A stretch of DNA of 64,000 bases. It comes from a virus. Lineage: Duplodnaviria > Caudoviricetes. The DNA lies in IMG/VR virus record IMGVR_UViG_3300037067_012588. The stretch is one strand, 5' to 3'. Below the pieces are notes generated by a model. The model was not told the DNA's origin, made no database searches, and saw only the letters and a list, made by a program, of their open reading frames with translations. Both the position numbers and the translations under genes were made by a program. Below are positions 5,781 to 30,182 of this stretch, one piece after another; the stretch's first letter is position 1, and the number at the start of each line of letters is the position of its first letter.

Positions 5781-5816
5781 TTCACTCCTCTTCTAGAGAC
5801 ACAAGAACATCGTCCG

Positions 5817-6371
5817 CTAGGCGAAAAAATGGTTGCTAATCTTTTTATCTTGAGAAACAACATGTTCGATGATGAACTTACAATCATGAGGAGGCGGGTC
5901 GAATATGTCGATTTTTGTATACCAGTTTCTGGTATCTTCTCCAAGCAAACAGCAATCGACCTTTCCAATCTCCCAGTCCGACTCGAACTCTTCCTTGTCC
6001 GATTCAATTGTTATATAATCGTTTTTGTGATGGACGTTGTTTTTGATTACGAGAAACCGCCACTTGCAATTCAGACAAACATCGTGACTCAGCTTAGGGG
6101 TCTCAAGATCAATCCGAATCTTTGTCAATCGTTTTGCCAACGCCAGACCAGCCTCCGACTTGTTAACCTGAACAAGCGCACACTGAAGAATCTTCAGCTC
6201 TTGTCGGCTCTTGATTTTGAAATCAACATCGACCTCGCCTTCTGAGTTGCGAAGCACAAAACACTTTTCAGAAGACATGCGTCTGGCTATGGCGTCTGGA
6301 TTTATCTTTTCATCCCACGAACCAATACGCTTCCACTCTTCAAGCATAGCCTTGGCTTCTTCAGGTGTCAT
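5817..6371 (-). CDS. Cys-module (CxxC...PxxC.F..EH) family protein
   Basis: VCLNC...DCC...PPHDCKFIIEHV. Confidence 0.65.
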   Translation of the reverse strand: MTPEEAKAMLEEWKRIGSWDEKINPDAIARRMSSEKCFVLRNSEGEVDVDFKIKSRQELKILQCALVQVNKSEAGLALAKRLTKIRIDLETPKLSHDVCLNCKWRFLVIKNNVHHKNDYITIESDKEEFESDWEIGKVDCCLLGEDTRNWYTKIDIFDPPPHDCKFIIEHVVSQDKKISNHFFA

Positions 6372-6374
6372 CGT

Positions 6375-6620
6375 TCACTCCGGACGCATAAACGAGTCAC
6401 CAAGTCCGATACAATTGGTGGCGTTGGCAGCGTCTTCCTTTTTCATTTCTTCCGCTTCATCCGTCTTGGAAAACTCAGCAGCAAGACGAGCAATCGATTC
6501 ACCACGAGGCTCATCCATACCAAACCGCTTGGAGTATTCCATCAGAGCGTTGAAGATAATGGATTTGTCATCAGCCGTCAATCCATACACGTTATAGACG
6601 GCTGTCCTTGTAATCTTCAT
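6375..6620 (-). CDS. hypothetical protein
   Basis: start re-chosen at MKITRT to remove the overlap with 6626..7183. Confidence 0.55.
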   Translation of the reverse strand: MKITRTAVYNVYGLTADDKSIIFNALMEYSKRFGMDEPRGESIARLAAEFSKTDEAEEMKKEDAANATNCIGLGDSFMRPE

Positions 6621-6625
6621 AAGAG

Positions 6626-7183
6626 TCAATCCTTGTTGAACAGGCTTGTATCGTTGTCCTGACCCGTCTCGAAACTGCGTGCCGTCTTGGACGAGGTCAC
6701 AATGGTGATATCGATTTGCTGACGCCCGAGAATGCTGCAAATCAGGCTGGATGGGAAAACGGAAAGAAGGTTGTCGTGTTCACGCTTCAAGTCGACCAGT
6801 TCCTTCTGGCGCTGTGTCCACGAATCACGGGACGCAACGATGATGTTTTGAAGGTTCTCATACGTCTTGACATCGACATTCGGGATGGATTCCTGAACCA
6901 TCTTCATCAGACCGCCACCACCGCCATTACCCGTTCGTGCCTCAGCATGAGCTGTGTATATTTCCTTCAGCTTCGTCATCTGGGCATCCGTACATTGGGC
7001 GACTTGCTGAACCTTCTTCCACATATTGTCGAATTCGCTCGTGTTGTCCTTCTGCTTGGCGGTAATCGTGTTGCGCAGTCGGGCTTCCGTATTCATCGTG
7101 CCGACAAACATGATGCCGAGAACGATAACGAACACCACACCGACACCAAACAAACCCAGAACAATCATCAACGTCTTGCTCAT
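6626..7183 (-). CDS. LemA-like single-pass membrane protein
   Basis: N-terminal TM helix, then a helical domain ending YENLQNII..SR...FPSSLI as in LemA-like proteins. Confidence 0.6.
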   Translation of the reverse strand: MSKTLMIVLGLFGVGVVFVIVLGIMFVGTMNTEARLRNTITAKQKDNTSEFDNMWKKVQQVAQCTDAQMTKLKEIYTAHAEARTGNGGGGGLMKMVQESIPNVDVKTYENLQNIIVASRDSWTQRQKELVDLKREHDNLLSVFPSSLICSILGRQQIDITIVTSSKTARSFETGQDNDTSLFNKD

Positions 7184-7220
7184 GTAAAAATCCTCTCTTT
7201 CTGAAGTGTTACGACGAAAA

Positions 7221-7421
7221 CTACTCGATAATCAAGTCAAGGGAGACAGACCCTGTCTTATGACGTTCTGCGTGGGTACTGGAACCAGTAAACACAAACC
7301 AAGAATGAACAAGAACTCCACCGTCCGGAGATAAAATCTTTCCTGTCGCCAAACAACCTTCAATCTTCTCGACAATGGCAGTCCTACCGCACATAACCTT
7401 GTATTCTCCGACAGTAACCAT
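7221..7421 (-). CDS. hypothetical protein
   Basis: 66-aa ORF with purine-rich SD. Confidence 0.55.
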   Translation of the reverse strand: MVTVGEYKVMCGRTAIVEKIEGCLATGKILSPDGGVLVHSWFVFTGSSTHAERHKTGSVSLDLIIE

Positions 7422-7459
7422 TCCATTCCCCTTTCTTAAGCCTTCAATAGTACATCGTC

Positions 7460-7493
7460 CAAGTCTGAATTTTCTAGTAGAAAATCAGACTTG
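7460..7493. promoter_or_regulatory. near-perfect intergenic inverted repeat (operator or terminator)
   Basis: CAAGTCTGA-A-TTTTCTA-G-TAGAAAA-TCAGACTTG, one bulged base. Confidence 0.5.
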
Positions 7494-7495
7494 TT

Positions 7496-7843
7496 TTATA
7501 CATCCTCCATCACAAGCTCCAACAGATACGGGCAGTTTATCTCACGATTCGTGTACCGAGTCAAATCAACATCGGCTGGATACTCAGAGAGAAAAACCTC
7601 ACCCTTTTGACACGGCGAAAAGGAATGATGGCTTCCTGAAATAATTTCGTCTTCTCTCTTAACATAATACGCATGGTTTTCAATCCGAACATCTTTTGCC
7701 AAACACATGCGGCAAATACGGCTCTTATGCCGAACGTTGATAAAGAAGTCCCCAAAAGGAATAACAACCGCAATAGGTATTTCCTCAATAGGCTCCCTTG
7801 GTTTGCGCTTGAAAATCCCACAAAAAGATTCGAAAAGACTCAT
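7496..7843 (-). CDS. Cys-module family protein
   Basis: ICRMC...PCQKG...NCPYLLELV. Confidence 0.65.
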   Translation of the reverse strand: MSLFESFCGIFKRKPREPIEEIPIAVVIPFGDFFINVRHKSRICRMCLAKDVRIENHAYYVKREDEIISGSHHSFSPCQKGEVFLSEYPADVDLTRYTNREINCPYLLELVMEDV

Positions 7844-8100
7844 ATCTCAAGTCCTCTTTTCAAAGCAGTATAACACATCGCCCAATATTCTTCGCAAACG
7901 AGATTCTCCCAGCTTTCCGAATCAGAACACACCACTTTCTTCAGGGCATTGCGACGAATCATGGCGATAGCAGCAATAAGGTGATGGTCATCCATGTCAC
8001 CGACAAGAATAACATCACCGTTTCTCATTTTCCACTCAACAAGCTCAAACCATTCCATTCTTTGCTCCCTTCGGATATTATACCATCGTCCGACAAGCAA
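7840..8100 (-). CDS. hypothetical protein
   Basis: W.MRNG...VGDMDDHHL..AI motif; start may be MEWFEL. Confidence 0.55.
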   Translation of the reverse strand: MLVGRWYNIRREQRMEWFELVEWKMRNGDVILVGDMDDHHLIAAIAMIRRNALKKVVCSDSESWENLVCEEYWAMCYTALKRGLEI

Positions 8101-8106
8101 AAAATT

Positions 8107-8391
8107 TTACTTTTTGAGCATTTTCTCAAGCGTCTCGGCCGACATTGGCCCGACATAGCCTTCAGTAGCCTCCACATACGGACAATCAGACGGCAATGCC
8201 CGTTGACGAATAGCATCTTCTGTCGACAAGCATCCTACGCCCTTTTCAAATCGCCTTGAGTATGCCTTACAGAGATTCGTACTTACGTCCAAAAACTGAC
8301 ACGGACGCCTTGTGAAGGCTGGTCCTATATCCGTAAGCACTTTGTAATAACAACAACGACCACAACGGCGGCAAACATCTTCATTGTCCAT
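8107..8391 (-). CDS. YkgJ/YcgN-like CxxCxxCC cysteine-cluster protein
   Basis: CRRCGRCC...CQFLD...LCKAYSRR...C...LPSDCPY. Confidence 0.8.
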   Translation of the reverse strand: MDNEDVCRRCGRCCYYKVLTDIGPAFTRRPCQFLDVSTNLCKAYSRRFEKGVGCLSTEDAIRQRALPSDCPYVEATEGYVGPMSAETLEKMLKK

Positions 8392-15236: not shown

Positions 15237-16127
15237 TCAATGGATTCCGTTACGAGACAAAACATCCCTGATTTCCATCAGTGTCTTCCTGTCCACATCG
15301 ACAGACGAAACCATGCTGCTCAGCGAGCCATAATGCTGCTCAAGAACATTCAACAGCAGACCTTTGATTTTCTCCTCATCAGGTCCATACGGCAACTTGC
15401 TTTCGTTGTACAGAACATCAAGCGACTTCTCCTTCTCCGAGAAATACTCCTTGATGCGTTCCTCCGTCCACTCGCCACGACGGATTGACTTCAAAATCTC
15501 ACTATTCCTGTCAAGCTCAAGGTCGCCCTCGGAAAGAATCTGCTCGCACTCAAGCATCAAACGAACAACGTGGTAGGCAAACTTCACGTCAAATCCGAAC
15601 TCCTGAACGTTGGCATGACGCTTGGAGCCTTCCTTCGGCTGCTTGATACTCATTTTGTGAATTTGTTGGTATGCGTACCCTCGGAATTTATGGAAACATC
15701 CCTTGTGGAGAAACAGTTTCCGATTCTCACGGAAAATCTCCGACAGACTCGTCGAATGAATAACGCAACGAGTCGGCACAAACAGAGAATCCAGCATGTT
15801 CGGGTTATTCTGCATCACAAGGTCAACAAACCGTGCGACACCGTAGACGGCGAAATCATACTGCTTGTCATGCTGCTTGTCGTCAACATGATGCTGCTGC
15901 CAGCAAGTGAAGTCTTGCGGCTCACGCCCGAACCCACGGATATGCCCAGCGAGATGCGGGAACAGATATTCCTTCGGCGGGATGCACCATCCGTACAGGT
16001 CCATATCCGAGCTTCCACCCGAACAGCCATAGGCAACACTACCCATTTGCACAAGGTAGTGCGTATTGGTCGGTAGGAACGATGGAGGGGAAATCAATCC
16101 CCGCTCTTTCAGATCAACAATCAGCAT
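15237..16127 (-). CDS. DNA pol beta superfamily nucleotidyltransferase (YcgL/RlaP-like)
   Basis: GSVAYG....SDMD, NNPNMLD.L, FRGYA..Q, FDVKFAYHVVRL, IRRG. Confidence 0.85.
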   Translation of the reverse strand: MLIVDLKERGLISPPSFLPTNTHYLVQMGSVAYGCSGGSSDMDLYGWCIPPKEYLFPHLAGHIRGFGREPQDFTCWQQHHVDDKQHDKQYDFAVYGVARFVDLVMQNNPNMLDSLFVPTRCVIHSTSLSEIFRENRKLFLHKGCFHKFRGYAYQQIHKMSIKQPKEGSKRHANVQEFGFDVKFAYHVVRLMLECEQILSEGDLELDRNSEILKSIRRGEWTEERIKEYFSEKEKSLDVLYNESKLPYGPDEEKIKGLLLNVLEQHYGSLSSMVSSVDVDRKTLMEIRDVLSRNGIH

Positions 16128-17002: not shown

Positions 17003-17189
17003 TCTCGCCCCCCGAGATAATGTGCTCCATCAGAAACGGACAACCTTGTGGAACACCGCCATCGTATTCCCCAAGAAATCTTAAATCTTCCACAAGAGTG
17101 CAAATGGTCGGACTACAAAACTCATTCGCCTCAAAGAGGCTATGGCATTTTCCTCTCTTGCAAATACCATAGTTGATTTCAGAAGTCAA
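16968..17189 (-). CDS. Cys-module family protein
   Basis: ICKRGKC...IC...VPQGCPFLMEH. Confidence 0.7.
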   Translation of the reverse strand: MTSEINYGICKRGKCHSLFEANEFCSPTICTLVEDLRFLGEYDGGVPQGCPFLMEHIISGGENECDKDKPMDL

Positions 17190-17958
17190 AACTTTGCCCT
17201 GCCTCTACAAATCCACAAAAACCATTGTCCTTGGCTGCCTGACGTACTGTCCCTGGCTGATAGTGATACAACCACATCTTCGAGCGGATATCATCACTGA
17301 GGGTTGTAAGGTCTGCAAAATTGGCATGAACACCACTCTTGAAAGGCGATGTTTCGCAGTCTTGGAAAATCACGTCACAGCTTCGATAAAAATCCATGAT
17401 TTGATTCGGAGCAAACTGCGTATCGCTCGTGAAAAACACTTTCGGCTTTTCAGATGAAACACCAATCTCCTGAATAATCAATCCATAGCTATACTTGATG
17501 TGATAGCCAGCCATAACGTGAACCGTCTGAACAGGAATAAACGTAATTCCCTCCCACACGAAGAACGAACTGTTCTCGACAGGGTGACAATCAAAATACT
17601 CAGTTAACGTCACAACCTTCCCCTGAATTGATTCCAGTCCTCCACGGAGAGCCTGCTCCCAAAGCTCGTGCATGAGTTGGGTATTGCAAAACAACCTCGG
17701 GCGTTCAGCGTTCGGATTGAAGTAAGTGCAAAACGCAAGCTCCTCAAGACCACCAACATGGTCAGCATGGAGGTGCGAGACATACACGGCATCAATGTCA
17801 GTGTATTTCAGCCCAAGACCAAGCTTGTCCGCTGTAGTCCAGCAAGTGCTTCCACAGTCAATCAATAACTTCTTGCCAGATGCCGCCGTGATAACAGCAT
17901 TGCTTTGACCATCAAGCTTGTTGAATGCCGACCCAGCTCCGATAAATTGAATCTTCAC
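17179..17958 (-). CDS. MBL-fold metallo-hydrolase, Apyc1 (anti-Pycsar)-like
   Basis: GAGSAF, LLIDCG, HLHADHVGGLEELAF, FTSDT, QDC, VHA, LYHY. Confidence 0.8.
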   Translation of the reverse strand: MKIQFIGAGSAFNKLDGQSNAVITAASGKKLLIDCGSTCWTTADKLGLGLKYTDIDAVYVSHLHADHVGGLEELAFCTYFNPNAERPRLFCNTQLMHELWEQALRGGLESIQGKVVTLTEYFDCHPVENSSFFVWEGITFIPVQTVHVMAGYHIKYSYGLIIQEIGVSSEKPKVFFTSDTQFAPNQIMDFYRSCDVIFQDCETSPFKSGVHANFADLTTLSDDIRSKMWLYHYQPGTVRQAAKDNGFCGFVEAGQSFDF

Positions 17959-18260: not shown

Positions 18261-18944
18261 TTATTTCCTCAACCTCACAAACGGATGGAGCGGACGAACC
18301 GACTCCATAATCTCTTCAAGGTCTTCATCAGAATACTGAAACGTTCCAGCCTTTTCAGCGGAAAGCAAAGGAATATCAGCGATATACTGCTGCAATATCC
18401 AAGACCCATCTCCATCCAACTGTTTGGCCATCTCAACAATGTTTTCCTTCGAGATAGTTGCTGGACAAAGCGTTGTTCTGTATTCTCGCTCAATACCGCT
18501 TCGCTTGACAATATCAAACGTCCTCGGAATAGACTTAGCATCCAAGCCAAACGCACCAACTGAATCAAGTTGCGAGTGAAGCGTCTTGTAGTCTACACAG
18601 ATGCAATCGAGAAGGCTATTGTTAAGCAATGAAAGAACAACATCTGGTCTTGTCCCATTGGTAGACAGTTTGATGTGATGTCCGAAGTTTCTCAAAACCC
18701 TTATGAAATCTTCCAGCCCATCCTGAAGTGTTGCCTCGCCACCACTCAAAACAACACCATTAACTCCAGACAGTTTTCCAATCGCCGCAACAACACTCAA
18801 GGAATCCAACCGCTCCTCTTTCTCAAGTCCAGAGTTGTGGCAATATGGACACAGCAAATTACACCCGCCAAAAAACACAATGGATGAAATGTGCCCCGGC
18901 CACTCATTCAATGAGTTTGGAATGAACCCACGAATGTCAATCAT
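18261..18944 (-). CDS. nrdG: anaerobic ribonucleotide reductase activating radical-SAM protein
   Basis: SLNEWPG, FFGGCNLLCPYCHN (CxxxCxxC), LSGGEATL, STNGTRP, EYRTT. Confidence 0.9.
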   Translation of the reverse strand: MIDIRGFIPNSLNEWPGHISSIVFFGGCNLLCPYCHNSGLEKEERLDSLSVVAAIGKLSGVNGVVLSGGEATLQDGLEDFIRVLRNFGHHIKLSTNGTRPDVVLSLLNNSLLDCICVDYKTLHSQLDSVGAFGLDAKSIPRTFDIVKRSGIEREYRTTLCPATISKENIVEMAKQLDGDGSWILQQYIADIPLLSAEKAGTFQYSDEDLEEIMESVRPLHPFVRLRK

Positions 18945-21861: not shown

Positions 21862-23190
21862 TCAGTTTTCTAAAGGCTTGAAAAAAGGACTGGCTATGCC
21901 AGGACTCATCACTGGAACAGTTATCTGAGTCTCTTTGAACACTTCGTCAATCATTTTCGTATCGCCTTTGTAAAACACCAAAATGTTTTGATGCGACTTT
22001 CCAAGACGCCTATATGTTCCAAACTGGCGACGAATACGCATCGGCAACGAACCACCTGCCGTCACAAGCACTGACTCATTATACAGGCGAGCGCCGTATT
22101 CCGAAAAAGCATCTATCGTTTCAGTAACGAGATTCCTATAAAACCCTGAATCATCTCGAACATCTCCAACAACAAAACATGCAAACCTGTTTTCCTTCAA
22201 CCTATCCAAACCCTTCCTGATTACCTCACGATAGGCATTTTTAAAGGAATCCCACCCCATGTTTGTCACATCTTCCTCAAGCGTACTGTAAATCTCCAAG
22301 TCGAAATATGGAGGACATGTGAAGAAGAAATCTGCATCAACATCCTTGGCAATAATATCGAGATCAACACTGTCCCCAATAACCCACTTCGGTTTTGGAT
22401 TACATTCCAATTTATCACCCTGACAAATGTTTGTGGTAATCTGCTCAGGTCGGATATCAATTCCAAAATAACCCCGATTGAGAGCACAGGCAACAATACC
22501 ACGAACAGAGCTCCCACAGAATGGGTCAAGAACAAGACCACCTTCTGGACAATATAGTCTATAAAGCGTCTCACAAAGAACAGGATCAAAAGAACTTCCG
22601 ACCTTTCCTCCACGGATGTTGACATCTTTGTCTTTTGATGTTGAACCCATTCCAAATCCGCCGTCAACGCCGCTCGAAATCCACGCATCCTTTCGACGCT
22701 TCCACTCTGGAAGTCTCGCATCAAACAAAGACGAACCATGATATATTGCTGGCTCCTCAAGAACGCTTTTCTCAGATTTCCCTCGCAAAACTGACTGCTC
22801 AACAACCTGTTGAAGATCATCAAACAAAAGCATATTCGTCAAATCGCTATCAACAGCACGAACATGTTCCATCAAATCGATAACCTCTTCAGTCCAAGCT
22901 CCTTCAATTTTTGGATTATTCAACGCAACATTGAGAGTCTTCTCCATCGAGTCATCAAGGTCAACCTCAATGACATCAAGCTCTTTCTTTCCAGCCGCTT
23001 GCATGACTTTTAGTCGTTGATGTCCTCCAACGACATTCCCAGTTCTCTTATTCCAAATGATAGGTTCAACTAATCCAAATCGAGAAATAGAAGCCTCAAG
23101 ACCAGCAAGGGCTCGCTCAGATATTTTCCTCGGATTATAACCTGCAGGATTCAACGCCTCAATCGGAACCCGAACCATCTTGACAAACAT
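21862..23190 (-). CDS. ParB-N + amino-DNA methyltransferase (motif I before motif IV)
   Basis: YNPR...FGLVEPIIWN...GGHQR; VLDPFCGS; TCPPYFDLE; start MFVKMV. Confidence 0.85.
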   Translation of the reverse strand: MFVKMVRVPIEALNPAGYNPRKISERALAGLEASISRFGLVEPIIWNKRTGNVVGGHQRLKVMQAAGKKELDVIEVDLDDSMEKTLNVALNNPKIEGAWTEEVIDLMEHVRAVDSDLTNMLLFDDLQQVVEQSVLRGKSEKSVLEEPAIYHGSSLFDARLPEWKRRKDAWISSGVDGGFGMGSTSKDKDVNIRGGKVGSSFDPVLCETLYRLYCPEGGLVLDPFCGSSVRGIVACALNRGYFGIDIRPEQITTNICQGDKLECNPKPKWVIGDSVDLDIIAKDVDADFFFTCPPYFDLEIYSTLEEDVTNMGWDSFKNAYREVIRKGLDRLKENRFACFVVGDVRDDSGFYRNLVTETIDAFSEYGARLYNESVLVTAGGSLPMRIRRQFGTYRRLGKSHQNILVFYKGDTKMIDEVFKETQITVPVMSPGIASPFFKPLEN

Positions 23191-23200
23191 AACGCCCTCA

Positions 23201-25210
23201 CTATTCCAATTCAACCAACTCCAAAGTCTCTGTCGGGTCAGCAACAAGTGTCTGCTCCAAACCAGAAAGGTCCATCGCACCAAACTCTGACTTTATTGTT
23301 TTCGGTTCGCCCTTGAAAAAAACCAAAAGACTCTTGTGAACACAAATTCCTTTTCTTCCAAGTTTTCCCTTTATCCATGGCTTATCTTGCAAGAAAATAG
23401 CCTCATTGTAAAGCCTCATACCTTGACTCTCAAATGCCTTGATTATCTTTCCAGAAAGACAAGACGAGAAGCCATCCTCATTCTCTACATCCTCAAAAAG
23501 AACACAAGCCATTCTCCCATCTTTGAGGTTTTTTACAGCAGCTTCTATCTTTCCGTAAATCTCTTCCGTGAATACGTTTACCTTCGGGACAACCATGACA
23601 ACCATATCTGACGCTTCCTCTGGAATCTCTGTCTTCCATAGAGGGGTCTGCGTTTCTTTTTCATTACGAACAACAACTTCTTCATTTCGGAGCCCAACAA
23701 CCCAAAGCAAATCACCGTAATCAAGATATGGCAAACACTTCGCCTCATACGACGAATCTAAAAGAATGTCCCCAATCATATTGCACTCTGCTTTGTCAGC
23801 AGAACATTTTACCAACGTCACCATCTCACGCCATCCAGCAGGCGCATACTGGTTTAACCTCTCATCAGGGTCAACCCCAACAACAACTCCCAAAACAGGA
23901 ATTTCTCTCCCGCTGTCTTTTAACCCATGAAGAATACCAGCCAAAGACATACCAGAACCAACAGGCACAACAATACGACTAACATCAGGAATATTTATTA
24001 CTTGCTCTGCCATCTGTCGTATAAATACATCACTCTCAAGATTAGCAGGAATTTCTGTCCATCCTCTTGCCGCAGCATCCTCTTTGGCTTTCGCAATAGC
24101 ATCAGTAATGAAATCTGTCTGGTGTTGAATGATTTCTGCCCCATGGTTCTTTGCATCCAAAAGCTCAGACGTCATATCACCCTTGTTGGTGTGAACACGA
24201 CAAGGAACTCCCAGACGACCAGCAATACGTGCGACAATGCCACTCAGGGGCGATGTAAGCCCCACAGCAGCGACGACACCACAAGAACCACTGCAAAGCT
24301 CTACACAGGCTCTAGCCTTCGCTCCACGGGCATTTGCTACGCAATACAAGTCATCTCGCTTCACAATGAACTCATCAACCATCTGAATCGGAGTAATGTC
24401 TTCTGTGTTGTCACTCAAATACCGTTTTGTCTTGACAGAAGCAAACACATCGATATTTCTCTTCGACTGTTTCTCGCTTGTCGTTATTCCAATATATTTT
24501 CCACCAGAAATTCCCGTCGCTATACCCCAAGACGGATCATCACCATACAAGTCAAGAACCGTTCCACCAGAAGGACAAAACCACTCAAGCAACAAAGAAG
24601 GAAGAACTGGATCATTGTCTCCACAAATACCATTCCGAACCATTTCTGCACGACGTTCTCTCCAATATGGCTTCCTCTGGTCAAGAGTTGTAAGTGGAGG
24701 AACTGAAAGTAATTCGTTTTCCGTGTCGGGATGAGTCTCTTCTTCTTCATTTTCTTCTGGCGGCGTATCTCCATCTCCACCTTCTTCACTCGCATCTTTC
24801 TTTTTCTCTTCTCCTCCGAGGGATTTCAAGAGATCATCAATACGAACAGCCTGAAACATCTCCGGCAATTCATCACCAATCTCCTGCAAAAGACTTCGAG
24901 TCGAATCATCCCAATCACCCCTTACGGCAGGACTATTCAACGTTATATTGAGAGCAATCTCATGAGTCTCGTCCATATCAACCTCAACAACATCTGTTTC
25001 AACAACACCCATCTCATTAAGAACTTTACATCTCTGATGCCCACCAACAACATTTCCAGTCCTCTTATTCCATACAATAGGCTCAACGAAACCGAACTTC
25101 GTAATTGACTCACGAAGTCCTGCAAAAGAGTTTGCATCGATTGTTCTTGGATTATAGTCGGAAGGCAAAAGGTCTTTGACAAACTTCCTAACCAAAACAA
25201 TATCTTTCAT
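23201..25210 (-). CDS. ParB-N + degenerate MTase with inserted fold-type-II PLP-enzyme domain
   Basis: ParB-N motifs; IVKRDDL...GAKAR, PVGSGMSLAG, LDSSYEAK PLP motifs; MTase-like flanks lacking FxGxG and PPY. Confidence 0.75.
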   Translation of the reverse strand: MKDIVLVRKFVKDLLPSDYNPRTIDANSFAGLRESITKFGFVEPIVWNKRTGNVVGGHQRCKVLNEMGVVETDVVEVDMDETHEIALNITLNSPAVRGDWDDSTRSLLQEIGDELPEMFQAVRIDDLLKSLGGEEKKKDASEEGGDGDTPPEENEEEETHPDTENELLSVPPLTTLDQRKPYWRERRAEMVRNGICGDNDPVLPSLLLEWFCPSGGTVLDLYGDDPSWGIATGISGGKYIGITTSEKQSKRNIDVFASVKTKRYLSDNTEDITPIQMVDEFIVKRDDLYCVANARGAKARACVELCSGSCGVVAAVGLTSPLSGIVARIAGRLGVPCRVHTNKGDMTSELLDAKNHGAEIIQHQTDFITDAIAKAKEDAAARGWTEIPANLESDVFIRQMAEQVINIPDVSRIVVPVGSGMSLAGILHGLKDSGREIPVLGVVVGVDPDERLNQYAPAGWREMVTLVKCSADKAECNMIGDILLDSSYEAKCLPYLDYGDLLWVVGLRNEEVVVRNEKETQTPLWKTEIPEEASDMVVMVVPKVNVFTEEIYGKIEAAVKNLKDGRMACVLFEDVENEDGFSSCLSGKIIKAFESQGMRLYNEAIFLQDKPWIKGKLGRKGICVHKSLLVFFKGEPKTIKSEFGAMDLSGLEQTLVADPTETLELVELE

Positions 25211-25302
25211 TCCGTTGCTCCAACAATCGGAGTCAACTGCTGCCAGTCGCACCCCTCACCATGAACATACTCAGCCCAACGTTTTCGAATCACATCACAA
25301 TA
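25197..25302. repeat. 106-bp direct repeat, copy A (MTase 3' end plus next start)
   Basis: matches 26531..26636 with 5 mismatches by hand alignment. Confidence 0.9.
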
Positions 25303-26544
25303 CTTCGTACTCAACTCCATTCCTCTGCCAAGTCGACCAGTAATCTCTGCGGCCATAATCGTTGTTCCCGACCCACAAAAACTATCAAATACAACATCAC
25401 CCTCATTTGAACTATTCTTCATTTGCTGTGTGAATAATTCTACGGGTTTTGTTGTAGGGTGATCTGCACTTCTTGCTGGTTTTTTGTAATCAAAAACGGT
25501 GGTCATTTTTCGTCCACCATTCCAACAATGTGCAGCCCCTTCTTTCCAACCATAAAGACAAGGATCATATTCAGGTTCATATCCTTTCTTCGACTTGTCT
25601 TGCTCTGGAACTTGTGACTCATCAGCAACCTTGTCTCCGTTCCATGTCACTTCTCCACCAAGCTTATGACCATATAAGCAAGGCTCATGTTTCTGTTGAT
25701 AATTCGACCAACCCAGAACCATAGTGTTTTTATTCCAAATTAATACCTGTCTGTTGTCCCAACCACAAGACTTCATAGCTAAAAAGAAATTCAAAGTCTC
25801 TGAATCACTATACCAAATATAATACACAGCACCAGGCTTCATGACACTGTCCGCAGCTTTATATGCCGAAGTAAGGAACTGCAAAAAATCATCATCGCTC
25901 ATTTTATCATTGGCAATCTTCAGGGCATCCTTTGTTTTTCCGACATAGGCAACATTGTACGGAGGGTCGGTCAACCAAAGACTAACGAGTTCTCCATTCA
26001 TAAGCTTTTTGACATCATCTTCCTTTGTCGATGAACCACACATTAACCTGTGATCCCCTAAACGATAAACTTCGCCCTCTTTGCTCTCTGGAGTCTTTGG
26101 AACTACTGGTATTGCGTCTGGATCAGTATGTCCCTTCTTGTCCTCACCAGGAAACATCTTCCCCAAATCATTCAACATAACCGACTTGTAAAGTTCTGGA
26201 AGCTCTCCTTCTACTCTCTCAAGTAAGTCGCCAATATTATCTGTCCAGTCTCCTTGAATAGCTGGGTTGTTTAACGTGACATTCAAAGCAATCTCTTCAT
26301 TCTCAGGCATGTCAACAACAACAACCGTTGTCTCTTCGACACCCTGCGCTGTTAAGACCTTGAACCTCTGATGCCCACCAACAATGTTTCCTGTCTGTTT
26401 GTTCCAGACAATAGGCTCAACTAAACCGAACCTCGTAATCGAAGAGGTCAAACCTGCAAGAGCTTCCTTTGATATAGACCTCGGGTTATAAGAAGCTGGC
26501 GTGATATCCGCCAGCTTCTTTGTTTCCCATACAATATCTTTCAT
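25207..26544 (-). CDS. ParB-N + beta-class N6A/N4C DNA methyltransferase
   Basis: TDPPYN, HPTTKP, VFDSFCGSGTT; start MKDIVW by ATGA overlap. Confidence 0.9.
   Translation of the reverse strand: MKDIVWETKKLADITPASYNPRSISKEALAGLTSSITRFGLVEPIVWNKQTGNIVGGHQRFKVLTAQGVEETTVVVVDMPENEEIALNVTLNNPAIQGDWTDNIGDLLERVEGELPELYKSVMLNDLGKMFPGEDKKGHTDPDAIPVVPKTPESKEGEVYRLGDHRLMCGSSTKEDDVKKLMNGELVSLWLTDPPYNVAYVGKTKDALKIANDKMSDDDFLQFLTSAYKAADSVMKPGAVYYIWYSDSETLNFFLAMKSCGWDNRQVLIWNKNTMVLGWSNYQQKHEPCLYGHKLGGEVTWNGDKVADESQVPEQDKSKKGYEPEYDPCLYGWKEGAAHCWNGGRKMTTVFDYKKPARSADHPTTKPVELFTQQMKNSSNEGDVVFDSFCGSGTTIMAAEITGRLGRGMELSTKYCDVIRKRWAEYVHGEGCDWQQLTPIVGATE
26401..26529. repeat. 129-bp direct repeat, copy A (ParB 5' region)
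   Basis: matches 27561..27689 with 5 mismatches by hand alignment. Confidence 0.9.
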
Positions 26545-26636
26545 TCTGTTGCTCCAATAATCGGGGTCAACTGCTGCCAGTCGCACCCCTCACCATGAAC
26601 ATATTCAGCCCAACGTTTTCGAATCACATCGCAATA
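26531..26636. repeat. 106-bp direct repeat, copy B
   Basis: matches 25197..25302. Confidence 0.9.
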
Positions 26637-27719
26637 GGATGTATTTAGCTCTATAGCACAACATTTTCTTTCAAGTTTTTCACAAGCTATCAATGTAGAA
26701 CCAGAACCGCAAAATGGTTCGAATACCAAACCACTTGTCCAGCCAACAACTTCTTCCATTAGCGATACTGGTTTCTCTGTAGGATGGAGATTGTTTCCAC
26801 TCCTATCATGTAGCACCAAGTCCGAAGGACGCTTACCCGTCCAAAAATGATTCTTACCCAAATAGAACAGACATACTTCAGTCTGCCTTCCATGTTCATG
26901 CTCCAAGTCACCCATAGACCAATTATTTTTTGCCCATGTAATGAGACTTTTAGGCATTGGCACATCTACCAAGTTATTCCAACGACACCACAGATATTTG
27001 GAATGTTCAGCTTCCAATCCTGTTGCCCAAACCAAAAGCTTGGCGTCTTCATCCCCTGCAATCTTTTCATGTTTCGCTGTTCCCTTACGATGTCCACTCT
27101 GGAACGCCATCCCATAAGGAGGGTCTGATACAACTGACCCTATAACTTGCCCGTCCAAAACTCTCTTCATATTTTCAGGACTTGAGCAATCACCACACAA
27201 AAGACGATGATCACCCAATTGGTACATTTCACCAACCTGACTTATCACGTCTTTTTGTGGCTCAGGTATGTCATCCTCGTTTTTCTTAGATTTTCTTGCG
27301 CTCGTATGCCCAAGAGCCTTCTCAAGGTCATCCAGTTTTACAGAATTGAAAAGGTCTGGAAGTTCCTCATTAATCATTTTTAGAAGATCACCAGTTCCTT
27401 CTGTCCAATCTCCCTGAATAGCTGGATTGTTTAACGTGATGTTGAGGGCAATTTCTTCGTTCTCAGGCATGTCAATTACGACAACCGTTGTCTCATCAAT
27501 ACCTTGTTCTGACAACACCTTGAATCGTTGATGTCCACCGACGATATTACCAGTTCTCTTGTTCCAGACAATAGGCTCAACTAAGCCAAACCTCGTAATC
27601 GAAGAGGTCAAACCTGCAAGGGCTTCCTTTGATATAGACCTTGGGTTATAAGAAGCTGGCGTGATATCTGCCAGCTTCTTTGTTTCCCACACCAAATCAC
27701 CAATAGTTTTTTTCGACAC
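26541..27719 (-). CDS. ParB-N + beta-class N6A/N4C DNA methyltransferase
   Basis: SDPPYG, HPTEKP, VFEPFCGSGST; AGGAG SD. Confidence 0.9.
   Translation of the reverse strand: MSKKTIGDLVWETKKLADITPASYNPRSISKEALAGLTSSITRFGLVEPIVWNKRTGNIVGGHQRFKVLSEQGIDETTVVVIDMPENEEIALNITLNNPAIQGDWTEGTGDLLKMINEELPDLFNSVKLDDLEKALGHTSARKSKKNEDDIPEPQKDVISQVGEMYQLGDHRLLCGDCSSPENMKRVLDGQVIGSVVSDPPYGMAFQSGHRKGTAKHEKIAGDEDAKLLVWATGLEAEHSKYLWCRWNNLVDVPMPKSLITWAKNNWSMGDLEHEHGRQTEVCLFYLGKNHFWTGKRPSDLVLHDRSGNNLHPTEKPVSLMEEVVGWTSGLVFEPFCGSGSTLIACEKLERKCCAIELNTSYCDVIRKRWAEYVHGEGCDWQQLTPIIGATE
27561..27689. repeat. 129-bp direct repeat, copy B
   Basis: matches 26401..26529. Confidence 0.9.
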
Positions 27720-27732
27720 AAAACATCTCCTC

Positions 27733-27960
27733 TTACTTCAGCGATGAAACATCAAAAGGTCCACCGTCAACAAACACCAACGGCGTAGCGTAATTCTGAG
27801 CAGCAAGATGCTTCAAAGCCGCAGGATTGAACTCATCACCGTTTGTCAATCCTGCCGCAGGACGCTCCTCAATTTCAAAACCATTGGAAATAAGAGTCTT
27901 CTTCACATCTTCACACTTCGGGCATTTATCACCAGCCCACATAATCGCAACCTTACCCAC
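27733..27960 (-). CDS. glutaredoxin/NrdH-like protein
   Basis: CPKC, TPLVFVDG; directly downstream of nrdD. Confidence 0.8.
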   Translation of the reverse strand: MGKVAIMWAGDKCPKCEDVKKTLISNGFEIEERPAAGLTNGDEFNPAALKHLAAQNYATPLVFVDGGPFDVSSLK

Positions 27961-27971
27961 GACTCACCTCC

Positions 27972-30182
27972 TCAAATTGTATACTGTCCACTATGACGAT
28001 CCTGACCTTCACGCTTCTTGCTGACGTTCCAATTGTCTACCTTCGAGTAATACCCAACGACACGGGTAATACGGTCAACATCTTTGTTGCCACACTTCGG
28101 ACAAGTCTCTTTCAACCCAGGAAACCGTCCGCACTTTTGGCAAACCGTAAACTCTGGAGATACAACCAATTGAGCGCAATTCGTTTCGTGAAAGACTTTC
28201 TCAAGCAAAGTGAAAAGCGATGAAGGCTCAGGCATATTCTCTCCACAAAACATATGAACGATAGCCCCCGATTCAATCATGTTGTGGAATTCAGACTGCT
28301 TGAAGACACGCTCGACAAAAGGAATGTCGGCATCTGGACGGAAGTGAATCGAATTGGTATAGTAGACATTGTCATCTTCAAGCGAACCGTTGACAAACTT
28401 CTTAGCAATCTCATATTTACCAACATCACAACGAGCGAGACGCCGAGCCGTACTCTCAGCAGGACTCTCTTCCAATGTGAACTTCAACCCAGTTTCCTTC
28501 TTGAACTTACCAAGAACAGCAAGCATATACGCAACAACATCCTTGCCCTTCTCAAACGCACCATCAGAATCGTGCATCTCCTGACCGACCATGAACTTCA
28601 AGGCTTCATTCAGCCCAATCATGCCAATGATATAGGTACAAGACGGAAGATGAACATACGGCTTTCCATCGAAATATGGAGCGCCACAGAGGTCATACAT
28701 CGGGTCGCCAGGATTCTGGCTGATTGACTCGATGAACTTCTTCTTCTGAAGATGAGCCTTCTTCGCCAGCTCCATTGCTGTCATCACTTCCTTCTCAAAC
28801 GCCTTCCAGTCACCATTGCTGCGATAGGCACACTGAGGCAGATTGATGGTCACGTTCATGAACCCACAGAAACGCAAACGCTCTGGCTCTTCGAGAATCT
28901 TCGGGTCCTCAATCTTCGTGCGCAACCTGCAACACGCCGCAACGGTAATACTATCGTGGTCAAAAATGAAATACGGAGAACCATTTTCACCAGCAATCTC
29001 GCAAGCCTGCATCACGATGTCTTTGTTCTCGGTAAAGTCCTTCTCAGAGAGGTGGAAATCCATCTTCGGAAAAGCAAACGGAGCTCCGTTCGAATCTCCA
29101 GCCCGCCAAACCTCCATCATCGACTTCAAGAACTTCTTCGATACCTCTTCATAATCAGCATAAGTCTTCTTGACAACAACCAAGCCATTACGACCTTCCT
29201 TAGCGGCAAGCTCGATATCTTCCCACGTATCCATATCGTCAAAGAACTTGTTGAAGTTTTCTCTGGTAATCTCAACATCGCCTTTGACAATCTTCGTCAG
29301 CATCTTCCCACCAGGACCAACAGCCTGAACCTTCTTAAGCCAATCAGGAATACTGATGTGGACATTGAAATCCGTGAAGAGAACCTGCCCACCACGACTG
29401 AACGCAGATTGGCTGAGCGAGAAAATCAGATACTGGGCAACCTGTTTCATCTCTTGAGCCGACATCTTCTCGACATACGGAGCAAAATAGATGTTCACAA
29501 AATCAAGCCCAAGAGCACCAGCATAATACGTCGCAGCACTGCAAAGGAATGTATTGATATGCCCGACAAGAACCTGAGCGTGTTTGGCCGGAGAAGAACG
29601 AACATCAAATTTCAGGAACTGCCCCAACCCGTGCATTGCAATAGCACGAACAGAATGAGCACTGCAATAAACTTTCGTGATACACCCCATGTCATGGAGG
29701 TGGATAAGACCTTCAAGGTGAGCACGCTCAACATCACCAGCAAAGACTTTCTTCAATGCGTACTTCTTAAACGTATTCTCGGCAACAATGAGAGCAATAG
29801 CTTCTGGATTGTTTCTTGAGATATTGCTGTTCTCTGAGGACTTCTCACGAATAAGATTGTCAAGGTCGTACAGTGACATACCGACCGAAACCTGACCAGA
29901 CAGCTTTGCACCATTGAATCCGTTTTTCAGCAAGTGGTAATTGACAATCATCTTGAGCGTCTGAATGTCAATTTCTGTTTTTCCCATCGCAACAAGCTCT
30001 TCGTAAACCGTATTCGCAATCTTTTCAGCATCGCCCTTCGTCAACTTACACTCTTCACGAAGAGCAGCAACAACCTTTGCGGAATCCCACTCATGGATAT
30101 CATAATTGGACAACGACTTTACCTGCAAATGAACGTCAGTCGAATTATCGTGACGCTCTTTCAACACCTTTACCTTTGTCAT
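27972..30182 (-). CDS. nrdD: class III anaerobic ribonucleoside-triphosphate reductase with ATP cone
   Basis: IHLHD, YCSAH, AACCRL, VTINLP, EESPAES, YYTNS, CxxC zinc ribbon, RVVGYY glycyl-radical loop. Confidence 0.95.
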   Translation of the reverse strand: MTKVKVLKERHDNSTDVHLQVKSLSNYDIHEWDSAKVVAALREECKLTKGDAEKIANTVYEELVAMGKTEIDIQTLKMIVNYHLLKNGFNGAKLSGQVSVGMSLYDLDNLIREKSSENSNISRNNPEAIALIVAENTFKKYALKKVFAGDVERAHLEGLIHLHDMGCITKVYCSAHSVRAIAMHGLGQFLKFDVRSSPAKHAQVLVGHINTFLCSAATYYAGALGLDFVNIYFAPYVEKMSAQEMKQVAQYLIFSLSQSAFSRGGQVLFTDFNVHISIPDWLKKVQAVGPGGKMLTKIVKGDVEITRENFNKFFDDMDTWEDIELAAKEGRNGLVVVKKTYADYEEVSKKFLKSMMEVWRAGDSNGAPFAFPKMDFHLSEKDFTENKDIVMQACEIAGENGSPYFIFDHDSITVAACCRLRTKIEDPKILEEPERLRFCGFMNVTINLPQCAYRSNGDWKAFEKEVMTAMELAKKAHLQKKKFIESISQNPGDPMYDLCGAPYFDGKPYVHLPSCTYIIGMIGLNEALKFMVGQEMHDSDGAFEKGKDVVAYMLAVLGKFKKETGLKFTLEESPAESTARRLARCDVGKYEIAKKFVNGSLEDDNVYYTNSIHFRPDADIPFVERVFKQSEFHNMIESGAIVHMFCGENMPEPSSLFTLLEKVFHETNCAQLVVSPEFTVCQKCGRFPGLKETCPKCGNKDVDRITRVVGYYSKVDNWNVSKKREGQDRHSGQYTI

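What the first reader, a model, noticed from the sequence alone, without database searches (positions are those of the whole stretch)
23201..25210. PLP-enzyme domain inserted into a catalytically degenerate ParB-MTase: candidate new DNA hypermodification enzyme
Seen: the flanks align by eye with the neighbouring MTase (LDQRKPYWRERR vs FDARLPEWKRRK; FCPSGGTVLD vs YCPEGGLVLD; RLYNEAI vs RLYNESV; HKSLLVFFKG vs HQNILVFYKG), but FxGxG and PPY are lost. Between them is a ~240-aa domain with KRDDL, the putative PLP lysine in GAKAR, the GSG phosphate loop and LDSSYEAK. Established: these motifs mark fold-type-II PLP enzymes (D-cysteine desulfhydrase/ACC deaminase), and PLP enzymes take part in some phage base hypermodifications. 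Inference: the dead MTase scaffold delivers a PLP reaction to DNA or works with the adjacent active MTase.
Basis: partly seen in the sequence, partly recalled or inferred. Interest (0 to 1): 0.75.

Follow-up and report, generated by a model that had tools for sequence, protein, structure and literature searches.

The report
Dead methylase scaffold carrying PLP enzyme
A giant uncultured phage encodes a DNA-binding protein whose methyltransferase part has lost its catalytic motifs but still carries a nested vitamin-B6 (PLP) enzyme related to enzymes that trim amino acids attached to phage DNA. It is the most eroded member of a widespread, untested phage family and probably works with the intact methyltransferase gene next to it.

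Summary
ORF 23201-25210 (-) encodes 669 aa: a ParB_N domain, a split methyltransferase fold, and a ~250-aa fold-type-II PLP domain nested inside that fold. SAM motifs I-III and catalytic motif IV are lost. The PLP domain hits Pfam PALP at 1.5e-13, and the best solved folds are D-cysteine desulfhydrase and ACC deaminase.

It is not a one-off. The PLP module defines a phage family of 487 representative clusters at E<=1e-30. It is joined to this one methyltransferase clade as a nested insert, as a C- or N-terminal fusion, or as a separate gene. Nearly all members keep intact methyltransferase motifs. This scan had already flagged the intact family on other DNA.

The nearest characterised relatives are Salmonella phage ViI gp226 and Pseudomonas phage M6 gp52. 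Both are PLP decarboxylases that act on amino acids attached to thymine in DNA. K298 aligns with their proposed PLP lysines.

The window copy and one relative in a 253-kb phage form a dead-methyltransferase subclade. In both phages an intact ParB-methyltransferase of the same clade follows directly (67% identical between the phages).

The window copy is also the most eroded in the PLP lobe, keeping 73 of 96 family-conserved positions. That makes it a conserved scaffold or partner protein whose own catalysis is uncertain, not an autonomous new enzyme. The chemistry is unknown.

The parts
24821..25210 (-). ParB_N domain (residues 1-130), the presumed DNA tether
   Evidence: Pfam ParB_N is weak (E 0.024), but PHROG ParB families score 1e-26 to 1e-27. 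The domain is close to the ParB_N of the three neighbouring genes, e.g. FGFVEPIVWNKRTGNVVGGHQR. pLDDT is 84-96.
24695..24814 (-). Acidic low-complexity linker (residues 133-172)
   Evidence: pLDDT is below 50 for residues 133-172. The sequence is rich in E and D.
24425..24694 (-). N-terminal half of the methyltransferase fold (residues 173-262) with eroded SAM motifs X, I and II
   Evidence: It aligns with the family's PPFSVLD...DPVL...DPFAGGSVRG...GIDLRxEQ block but reads DLYGDDPSWG and GITTSEKQ. It keeps 19 of 33 family-conserved columns, against a minimum of 27 in other members. pLDDT is about 90.
23675..24424 (-). Nested fold-type-II PLP (PALP) domain, residues 263-512
   Evidence: Pfam PALP E 1.5e-13. 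phrog_3650 (the ViI gp226 family) E 9.2e-21. 298 bits against a family profile built without this sequence. Foldseek top hits are 7ysk and 4d8t. It keeps 73 of 96 conserved columns.
24317..24319 (-). Codon of K298, the putative PLP Schiff-base lysine (GAKAR)
   Evidence: K298 is invariant in 70 family members. It aligns with the GGNK lysine of D-Cys desulfhydrase and ACC deaminase. It also aligns with K36 of M6 gp52 and K92 of ViI gp226, the lysines proposed in PMC8989533.
23945..23959 (-). GSGMS glycine-rich loop (residues 418-422), the putative PLP phosphate-binding loop
   Evidence: The loop is nearly invariant in the family: S419, G420 and M421 are invariant, G418 and S422 are conserved in at least 90%. 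It aligns with GSAGT of 4d8t and with the loop of 1f2d.
23738..23749 (-). YEAK motif (residues 488-491), equivalent to the Tyr-Glu of ACC deaminase (DPVYEGK)
   Evidence: Y488, E489 and K491 are invariant. The motif aligns with LDPVYTGK of 4d8t and DPVYEGK of 1f2d.
23276..23674 (-). C-terminal half of the methyltransferase fold (residues 513-645), lacking motifs III and IV
   Evidence: The family's GDS and F(S/T)CPPYxDLExYSD are absent. It keeps 18 of 40 conserved columns, against a minimum of 31 in other members. Strands and helices are predicted with mostly high pLDDT.
23201..23275 (-). Conserved acidic C-terminal tail (MDLSGLEQTLVADPTETLELVELE) plus the stop codon
   Evidence: The tail is nearly identical in the only close relative, P0002, and absent from other family members. 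pLDDT is low. It may be an interaction peptide; this is inference.
21862..23190 (-). Adjacent intact ParB-methyltransferase of the same clade, without the PLP insert; the proposed partner
   Evidence: Pfam ParB_N and N6_N4_Mtase hits; phrog_12517 at 4e-84. Motifs DPFCGSSVRG, FTCPPYFDLE and HQNILVFYKGD are intact. It starts 10 nt after the PALP gene's stop. Its orthologue holds the same position in L094 at 67% identity.
25207..26544 (-). Upstream ParB + beta-class N6/N4 methyltransferase, translationally coupled to the PALP gene
   Evidence: Pfam N6_N4_Mtase E 1.9e-30 and ParB_N. Its stop overlaps the PALP gene's start as ATGA.
26541..27719 (-). First gene of the four-gene array: ParB + beta-class methyltransferase
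   Evidence: Pfam N6_N4_Mtase E 1.6e-14 and ParB_N.

Best explanation
The gene encodes a divergent, methylation-dead member of a phage protein family in which a short PLP enzyme is joined to one clade of ParB-tethered DNA methyltransferases.

Most likely mechanism:
- The ParB_N domain holds the protein on phage DNA.
- The two methyltransferase half-folds survive only as a scaffold. This part is shown: SAM motifs I-III and catalytic motif IV are gone, while the fold is still confidently predicted.
- The nested PLP domain still binds PLP through K298. This is inferred.
- The protein works in trans with the intact ParB-methyltransferase encoded directly downstream, so the pair replaces the single bifunctional enzyme of other phages.

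By homology with ViI gp226 and M6 gp52, the ancestral job of the PLP module is to process (for example decarboxylate) an amino-acid-like group attached to a DNA base. Both the chemistry and whether this eroded copy still catalyses it are unproven.
For: Family size. The PLP-domain profile finds 487 representative proteins at E<=1e-30.

Architectures. Among 254 sequences, 139 are nested, 60 are MTase-then-PALP, 5 are PALP-then-MTase and 12 are stand-alone. Separate adjacent or nearby genes occur in L021 and L022. Repeated independent joining argues for a functional link.

Characterised relatives.
- The window PLP domain hits phrog_3650 at 9.2e-21, and ViI gp226 hits the same family at 2.5e-241.
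- hhalign of the family profile against gp226 gives prob 97.4, E 1.2e-11, with shared SPQ, GYN and QVANIP motifs.
- Against M6 gp52 it gives prob 94.8, E 5.3e-8, over 228 columns.
- Both proteins are experimentally shown PLP decarboxylases of O-serinyl- and C-alpha-glycinyl-thymidine in DNA (PMC8989533).
- K298 aligns with their proposed K92 and K36.

Conserved pairing. In the 253-kb phage contig L094 the order NrdD, ParB-MTase, ParB-deadMTase-PALP, intact ParB-MTase, radical SAM is kept. The downstream partner is 67% identical to the window's, and the PALP proteins are 51% identical along their whole length, including the dead lobes and the tail.

Operon. The genes are tightly packed and translationally coupled.
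Against: - The window copy keeps only 73 of 96 family-conserved PLP-lobe positions. Its sister keeps 89, and every other member keeps at least 81.
- It has lost four motif clusters: TAGSR, SPQVN, AGYN and FGMEC. Two of them (SPQ, GYN) are shared with gp226, so the PLP lobe may be inactive or retargeted.
- Methyltransferases with and without the PLP module are interleaved on the tree and show no discriminating core positions. The methyltransferase may therefore simply methylate, with the PLP module an unrelated helper.
- No thymidine-hypermodification genes (5-hmdU kinase, aGPT-Pplase) turned up among the 24 window ORFs scanned, which is only part of the window.
- No physical interaction, cofactor binding or modified base has been shown.
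Confidence: 0.42

Rival explanations
1. Double pseudoenzyme. Both the methyltransferase and the PLP lobes are catalytically inert. The protein survives as a ParB-anchored structural or regulatory partner of the neighbouring methyltransferases, much as METTL14 supports METTL3. It might dimerise with them or guide them on DNA.
For: - All SAM and catalytic motifs are lost.
- PLP-lobe erosion is the worst in the family and hits motifs conserved out to gp226.
- The methyltransferase core sits on a long branch: tip 1.31 against a median of 0.45.
- The ParB domain and the overall fold stay well conserved and confidently predicted.
- The protein is paired with an intact paralogue in two phages.
Against: - The PLP lysine, the phosphate loop and Tyr-Glu are all retained.
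- The sister protein P0002 keeps 89 of 96 PLP-lobe positions although its methyltransferase is equally dead. The PLP lobe was therefore the selected part, at least until recently.
- M6 gp52 is active without the SPQ and GYN motifs.
Confidence: 0.27
2. The PLP module acts on a free small molecule rather than on DNA. Candidates are SAM, SAH, ACC, D-cysteine or a related amino acid. It would serve as a metabolic helper to methylation or as a counter-defence enzyme, and fusion to the methyltransferase would only ensure co-expression or co-localisation.
For: - The best solved folds and motif pattern (K, S, Y-E) are those of ACC deaminase and D-Cys desulfhydrase, which act on free amino acids.
- Methyltransferases with and without the PLP module have indistinguishable cores and are interleaved on the tree.
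- Stand-alone copies exist.
Against: - The nearest characterised homologues act on DNA-borne amino acids.
- The fusion partners found are all DNA enzymes or GNAT: this methyltransferase clade, ParB, one DNA polymerase A, and GNAT.
- NCBIfam ACC-deaminase and D-Cys-desulfhydrase models score 20-37 bits against cut-offs of 289 or more.
- The domain is about 85 residues shorter than those enzymes.
Confidence: 0.16
3. One reading: this single protein is by itself a new DNA hypermodification enzyme. Its dead methyltransferase flips a base and its PLP site modifies that base directly.
For: The ParB tether, the retained methyltransferase fold and the retained PLP core residues.
Against: - Motif IV, which forms the pocket for the flipped base, is deleted.
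- PLP chemistry needs a primary aliphatic amine, which unmodified DNA bases lack (established PLP chemistry; also stated in PMC8989533).
- The gene always sits next to an intact paralogue.
Confidence: 0.08

Closest known systems
Salmonella phage ViI gp226 (phrog_3650) and Pseudomonas phage M6 gp52 (phrog_7093): PLP-dependent decarboxylases of amino-acid:thymine conjugates in DNA (Lee et al., NAR 2021, PMC8989533)
   Same: Both are short fold-type-II PLP domains. The Schiff-base lysines align (K298 with K92 and K36). The Gly-rich loop and the Y-(E/D)-x-K motif align. The window domain hits phrog_3650 at 9.2e-21, and the family profile gives hhalign prob 97.4 and 94.8. All are phage proteins tied to DNA modification.
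   Different: gp226 and gp52 are free-standing proteins in 5-hmdU kinase / aGPT-Pplase gene clusters and act on thymidine adducts. Here the domain is nested in a dead methyltransferase fold behind a ParB domain, and no kinase or transferase genes turned up among the window ORFs scanned. Identity is only about 19%. The window copy lacks the SPQ and GYN motifs that its family shares with gp226.
The uncharacterised phage family of ParB-methyltransferases with a nested or fused PLP domain, e.g. Pseudanabaena phage Pam4 gp70 (UQS95213.1, annotated 'pyridoxal-phosphate dependent enzyme')
   Same: The domain order is the same and so is the insertion point, between the helix after motif II and motif III. 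The PLP-domain family is the same: 298 bits against the family profile.
   Different: Canonical members keep DPFAGGSVRG and (S/T)CPPY; 139 of 254 are nested with both motifs present. The window protein and P0002 have lost both. The window copy is also the lowest scorer in the PLP lobe.
ACC deaminase / D-cysteine desulfhydrase (PDB 1f2d, 1rqx, 1j0a, 4d8t, 7ysk)
   Same: These are the best solved-structure matches (Foldseek E ~1e-11). The KRDD...GxK lysine motif, Ser78, the Gly-rich loop and DPVY(E/T)GK all align.
   Different: The domain is about 245 aa against about 330. The Asn79 equivalent is Pro. NCBIfam family models fall far below their cut-offs. The domain is embedded in a DNA-enzyme scaffold.
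ParB-methyltransferase fusions of phage 'ParB-Tls' loci (Iyer et al. 2013, as cited in PMC6536676); Listeria phage B054 gp77; Enterococcus phage phiFL3A gp36
   Same: The ParB_N domain is the same, and so is the circularly permuted methyltransferase fold with motif I before motif IV.
   Different: Those proteins lack the PLP insert and keep their catalytic motifs. This gene lies in a jumbo phage next to nrdD, not next to a terminase gene.
METTL3-METTL14-type pairing of an active methyltransferase with a catalytically dead paralogue
   Same: A dead paralogue encoded beside an active one and conserved as a pair. This is an analogy only.
   Different: There is no homology beyond the class I fold, no evidence of a heterodimer here, and the dead partner carries an extra enzyme domain.

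Membership tests
N6/N4 DNA methyltransferase (Pfam PF01555), active enzyme | SAM-binding motif I (FxGxG type; DPFAGGS in this clade) | tested here: not met
   The protein reads DLYGDDPSWG. P221L, F222Y, A223G, G224D and G225D are all changed from the family consensus.
N6/N4 DNA methyltransferase (Pfam PF01555), active enzyme | Catalytic motif IV, (D/N/S)PPY; (S/T)CPPY in this clade | tested here: not met
   The CPPYxDLExYSD block is replaced or deleted (MVVMVVPKVNVF).
N6/N4 DNA methyltransferase (Pfam PF01555), active enzyme | Significant match to the family model | tested here: not met
   There is no PF01555 hit at E<=0.1, while the three neighbouring genes score 5e-14 to 2e-30. The flanks still match phrog_498 and phrog_12517 and align with the clade.
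N6/N4 DNA methyltransferase (Pfam PF01555), active enzyme | Class I methyltransferase fold retained | tested here: met
   The AlphaFold2 model has alternating strands and helices with pLDDT of about 90 in both halves. BFVD matches include phage DNA methylases at E 7e-17 and 7e-14.
Fold-type-II PLP enzyme (Pfam PF00291 PALP) | Match above Pfam's gathering score, and the fold | tested here: met
   51.2 bits against a cut-off of 35. Foldseek prob 1.00 to 7ysk, 4d8t and 1j0a.
Fold-type-II PLP enzyme (Pfam PF00291 PALP) | Schiff-base lysine and phosphate-binding Gly-rich loop | tested here: met
   K298 and GSGMS 418-422 align with the corresponding residues of 4d8t and 1f2d, and are invariant or nearly invariant in the family.
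Fold-type-II PLP enzyme (Pfam PF00291 PALP) | Actual PLP binding | not testable with these tools
   This needs the absorbance spectrum of the purified protein and of a K298A mutant.
ACC deaminase / D-cysteine desulfhydrase (NCBIfam TIGR01274, TIGR01275, PRK03910) | Score above the curated family cut-off | tested here: not met
   The window protein has no hit to these models at E<=0.001. Canonical family members score 21-37 bits against cut-offs of 289-610.
ACC deaminase / D-cysteine desulfhydrase (NCBIfam TIGR01274, TIGR01275, PRK03910) | Signature residues Lys51, Ser78, Asn79, Tyr294, Glu295 (numbering recalled from the literature) | tested here: inconclusive
   The Lys, Ser, Tyr and Glu equivalents are present (K298, S320, Y488, E489). 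The Asn79 equivalent is Pro321 in the whole family.
DNA-adduct PLP decarboxylases (ViI gp226 / M6 gp52; phrog_3650 / phrog_7093) | Sequence homology to the characterised proteins | tested here: met
   phrog_3650 at E 9.2e-21 for the window domain. hhalign of the family profile gives prob 97.4 to gp226 and 94.8 to gp52.
DNA-adduct PLP decarboxylases (ViI gp226 / M6 gp52; phrog_3650 / phrog_7093) | Genomic association with 5-hmdU DNA kinase and aGPT-Pplase (amino-acid:DNA transferase) genes | tested here: not met
   None turned up among the 24 window ORFs scanned with Pfam or PHROGs. That is only part of the window's ORFs, and only 64 kb of a ~345-kb genome is visible.
DNA-adduct PLP decarboxylases (ViI gp226 / M6 gp52; phrog_3650 / phrog_7093) | Decarboxylation of an amino acid attached to a DNA base | not testable with these tools
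   This needs in-vitro assays and nucleoside LC-MS.
Phage methyltransferase-PLP fusion family (unnamed; Pam4 gp70 type) | Family-specific PLP domain placed between motif II and motif III of this methyltransferase clade | tested here: met
   298 bits against a profile built without this sequence. The insertion point is the same in the 70-sequence alignment.
Phage methyltransferase-PLP fusion family (unnamed; Pam4 gp70 type) | Intact methyltransferase motifs alongside the PLP domain | tested here: not met
   The motifs are lost here and in P0002 only. 139 of 254 sequences are nested with motifs I and IV both present.

The most novel reading that the evidence does not exclude
The pair (21862-23190 plus 23201-25210) is a split two-protein form of an undescribed DNA hypermodification pathway. 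In this reading the intact methyltransferase-like enzyme transfers the amino-acid end of SAM (3-amino-3-carboxypropyl) or another amine-bearing group to a base. The dead-methyltransferase scaffold then reads or flips the adduct into its PLP site, which trims it, for example by decarboxylation to an aminopropyl group. That would be a SAM-derived, non-thymidine hypermodification, and this locus would be a natural separation-of-function variant of it.
Probability: 0.12. Interest if true: 0.85.

Novelty: new variant of a known kind. Interest (0 to 1): 0.5.

Why it matters
Known PLP steps in phage DNA hypermodification all belong to thymidine pathways that start from 5-hmdU. Here a homologous PLP module is welded again and again to a ParB-tethered methyltransferase clade, across hundreds of phage lineages. 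That hints at a second, unexplored route to modified DNA, or at an unknown helper function for methylation.

This locus adds a natural experiment. In two jumbo phages the methyltransferase half of the fusion has died while the PLP-bearing scaffold and an intact paralogue next door are kept. This suggests the PLP module does not need methyltransferase chemistry in the same polypeptide, and it offers a ready-made two-component system for testing the family.

The copy itself is eroded, so it is a weaker choice for first biochemical work than intact members such as Pam4 gp70.

Tried and rejected
Contexts came from the search for related loci instead.
- No whole genome is held for this window. The other ~280 kb of the phage could not be searched for a second PLP gene, 5-hmdU kinases or amino-acid:DNA transferases.
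- megablast of the four-gene array against GenBank phages found nothing.
- Neighbourhood clustering of 29 viral loci found no partner gene conserved across lineages. The only recurring extra is a GNAT acetyltransferase, adjacent in L021 and fused in P0173.
- NCBIfam has no model for the family.
- Seven literature searches found no characterisation of a methyltransferase-PLP fusion. The library holds open-access papers only. The Pam4 genome paper does not mention the gene.
- I looked for residues that separate methyltransferase cores with and without the PLP module, as a sign of changed chemistry, and found none.
- The tree cannot place the dead pair reliably because its branch is long. I therefore do not claim that the dead copy and its neighbour are tandem duplicates.
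- Scans for further dead-type relatives found only the one 253-kb contig.
- I rejected the idea that the gene is a decaying pseudogene. The frame is intact, translation is coupled to its neighbours, the sister protein is 51% identical along its whole length, and the fold is predicted with confidence.
- Model coordinates are not exposed. The distance from the PLP lysine to the former SAM pocket could not be measured.
Full report
**The observation**

The minus-strand ORF 23201-25210 encodes 669 aa. It is the third gene of a tightly packed four-gene array. Its ATG overlaps the TGA of the upstream gene as ATGA. The next gene starts 10 nt after its TAG, behind a GAGG.

Pfam finds PALP (PF00291) at E 1.5e-13, 51.2 bits against a cut-off of 35, plus a weak ParB_N hit. 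It finds no N6_N4_Mtase hit, although the three neighbouring genes all have one. PHROGs recognises three parts: the ParB part, the flanks (phrog_498, phrog_12517) and the insert (phrog_3650).

An AlphaFold2 model built on a 70-sequence alignment has mean pLDDT 84. The insert is at about 95, both methyltransferase halves are at about 90, and the acidic linker (residues 133-172) is disordered. Foldseek against the PDB gives D-cysteine desulfhydrase (7ysk, 4d8t; E ~1e-11, prob 1.00) and ACC-deaminase homologues (1j0a, 1rqx, 1f2d) as the best matches.

**The family**

The protein is not a singleton. A search restricted to residues 190-669 returned 279 homologues, nearly all carrying both PF00291 and PF01555. 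A profile of the PLP domain alone finds 487 representative proteins (50%-identity clusters) at E<=1e-30 among 1.84 billion.

I tallied the architectures of 254 retrieved sequences:

| Architecture | Count |
|---|---|
| PLP domain nested between motif I and motif IV | 139 |
| Complete methyltransferase followed by the PLP domain | 60 |
| PLP domain followed by the methyltransferase | 5 |
| Stand-alone, ~250-280 aa | 12 |

In viral contigs L021 and L022 a stand-alone copy lies next to, or 4 kb from, a methyltransferase of the same clade. Odd partners are a GNAT acetyltransferase (fused in P0173, adjacent in L021) and one DNA polymerase A.

No other partner gene is conserved across lineages. The family is overwhelmingly viral. 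It occurs in many IMG/VR contigs, but only 12 loci were found among 185,579 representative cellular genomes, using one exact pattern. A cultured phage, Pseudanabaena phage Pam4, has an intact nested member, gp70, annotated only as 'pyridoxal-phosphate dependent enzyme'. NCBIfam has no model for the family. Seven literature searches found no characterisation.

Earlier notes of this scan had already flagged the intact nested family on other DNA.

**How this copy differs**

In the 70-sequence alignment the family consensus keeps these methyltransferase motifs:
- motif X: FDPVL
- motif I: DPFAGGSVRG
- motif II: GIDLRxEQ
- motif III: GDS
- motif IV: F(S/T)CPPYxDLExYSD
- the C-terminal HQNVLVFxKGD block

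The window protein reads DLYGDDPSWG at motif I and GITTSEKQ at motif II, and it lacks motifs III and IV.

Counting columns conserved in at least 90% of the other members gives the following:

| Lobe | Conserved columns | Window protein | P0002 (sister) | Minimum in other members |
|---|---|---|---|---|
| N-terminal methyltransferase half | 33 | 19 | 20 | 27 |
| C-terminal methyltransferase half | 40 | 18 | 21 | 31 |
| PLP lobe | 96 | 73 | 89 | 81 |

P0002, at 49-51% identity, is the only close relative. It is equally dead in the methyltransferase halves but keeps its PLP lobe.

The window's PLP-lobe losses fall in four motif clusters:
- TAGSR reads AVGLT.
- SPQVN reads SPLSG.
- AGYNxVI reads TDFITDA.
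- IPFGMEC reads IPANLES.

The PLP lysine K298, Ser320, the GSGMS loop and Tyr488-Glu489-x-Lys491 are retained. Against a family profile built without it, the window domain scores 298 bits. The median of the retrieved set is 373, and P0002 scores 395.

On a tree of the methyltransferase core, the two dead proteins form a 100%-supported pair on a very long branch (stem 1.58; tips 1.31 and 0.68; median tip 0.45).

**Nearest characterised relatives**

Lee et al. (NAR 2021, PMC8989533) purified both proteins. They showed that both carry PLP and decarboxylate O-serinyl-thymidine (gp226) and C-alpha-glycinyl-thymidine (gp52) within DNA. They proposed K92 and K36 as the Schiff-base lysines, and gp226 was modelled on 1j0a.

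I fetched both genes. The results are:
- gp226 is the archetype of phrog_3650 (E 2.5e-241).
- The window PLP domain hits phrog_3650 at 9.2e-21.
- A canonical family member hits phrog_3650 at 2.6e-38, and also hits gp52's phrog_7093 at 3.2e-13.
- hhalign of the family profile gives prob 97.4, E 1.2e-11, to gp226, with shared SPQ, GYN and QVANIP motifs.
- hhalign gives prob 94.8, E 5.3e-8, over 228 columns to the 278-aa gp52.
- K298 aligns with K92 and K36 in those alignments.

The closest proteins of known function are therefore PLP enzymes that work on amino acids hanging from DNA bases. The closest solved structures are ACC deaminase and D-Cys desulfhydrase, which share the K...S...GxG...Y(E/T)GK pattern.

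**Conserved pairing**

The one close relative lies on a 253-kb viral contig (L094, the same contig as L176). Its gene order mirrors the window: NrdD, a ParB-methyltransferase, the ParB-deadMTase-PLP gene, then an intact ParB-methyltransferase of the CPPY clade, with a radical-SAM gene further on.

The downstream intact methyltransferase is 67% identical to window 21862-23190. The PLP proteins are 51% identical along their whole length, including the dead lobes and a distinctive acidic tail (DLSGLExTLVxDPxETxExVELE).

The dead scaffold has therefore been kept under selection, always beside an intact paralogue.

**Interpretation**

Shown:
- the domain anatomy;
- loss of all methyltransferase motifs;
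- retention of the core PLP residues;
- family membership;
- homology to DNA-adduct decarboxylases;
- conserved pairing with an intact methyltransferase.

Inferred:
- ParB tethers the protein to DNA.
- The methyltransferase halves act as a scaffold.
- The PLP lobe binds PLP.
- The protein acts in trans with its neighbour, so the pair replaces the single bifunctional enzyme of other phages.

Speculative:
- The methyltransferase-like partner installs an amine-bearing group, for example the aminocarboxypropyl end of SAM, which the PLP lobe then trims.

**Evidence against the hypermodification reading**

- Methyltransferases with and without the PLP module are interleaved on the tree, with at least 4-5 changes forced by well-supported branches.
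- They show no discriminating core residues.
- Complete phage genomes such as B054 and phiFL3A carry the methyltransferase with no PLP gene detectable.
- The clade may therefore simply methylate, with the PLP module a helper of unknown role.
- The window copy's loss of SPQ and GYN raises the chance that it is a double pseudoenzyme. Against that, M6 gp52 is active without those motifs.

**Verdict**

But the protein is a degenerate member of a known-to-exist, untested phage family, not a new autonomous enzyme.

Its particular value is as a natural split variant: the PLP scaffold in one gene and the intact methyltransferase in the next. The window also holds a Mom-family gene, so this phage invests heavily in DNA modification.

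- No whole genome is held for this window.
- Model coordinates are not exposed.

Noticed in passing
window 2374-3018 (+): A Mom-family protein (Pfam PF25680, E 1.5e-31), on the opposite strand to most genes. Together with the four ParB-methyltransferase-type genes, it suggests this phage also modifies adenine N6.
   Followed up: partly
window 17179-17958 (-): A homologue of anti-Pycsar protein Apyc1 (PF23023, E 1.3e-33; metallo-beta-lactamase fold). It is a likely counter-defence nuclease against cyclic-nucleotide signals.
   Followed up: no
window 27972-30182 (-), 27733-27960 (-) and 18261-18944 (-): An anaerobic ribonucleotide reductase NrdD (E 6e-125), a small ORF just downstream of it that looks glutaredoxin-like (not scanned against any library), and a radical-SAM activase-like gene 9 kb away. 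In the related phage L094 the NrdD gene carries LAGLIDADG and intein domains.
   Followed up: partly
window 15237-16127 (-): An RlaP-type nucleotidyltransferase (PF10127, E 1e-19), a family linked to RNA repair.
   Followed up: no
P0146 (1049 aa) and P0173 (418 aa): The same PLP domain is fused to a family-A DNA polymerase in P0146 and to a GNAT acetyltransferase in P0173. In viral contig L021 a GNAT gene overlaps the start of a stand-alone PLP gene, and a methyltransferase gene follows.
   Followed up: partly
P0111, P0056, P0031, P0042, P0047, P0053: Some family members also carry a DUF3109 (PF11307) cysteine-rich domain between the methyltransferase and the PLP domain.
   Followed up: no
window 23201-23275 (-); L094 C-terminus of 6001-8166: The acidic tail MDLSGLEQTLVADPTETLELVELE is conserved almost letter for letter between the two dead-methyltransferase PLP proteins and is absent from the rest of the family. 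It may be a docking peptide.
   Followed up: partly
window 25207-25260 and 26541-26590 (-): The 3' ends of the two beta-class methyltransferase genes encode the same ...GEGCDWQQLTPI(V/I)GATE. Each runs into the next gene's MKDIV... start, so the gene junctions are near-duplicates, consistent with tandem duplication or recombination.
   Followed up: no
L001 (Pseudanabaena phage Pam4, ON014756) 5020-7509: gp70 of a cultured cyanophage is an intact nested methyltransferase-PLP enzyme. Motif I is at residue 348, CPPY at 686, KRDD at 418 and YEAK at 626. Its 330-aa N-terminal region has no Pfam match. It is a tractable system for testing the family.
   Followed up: partly
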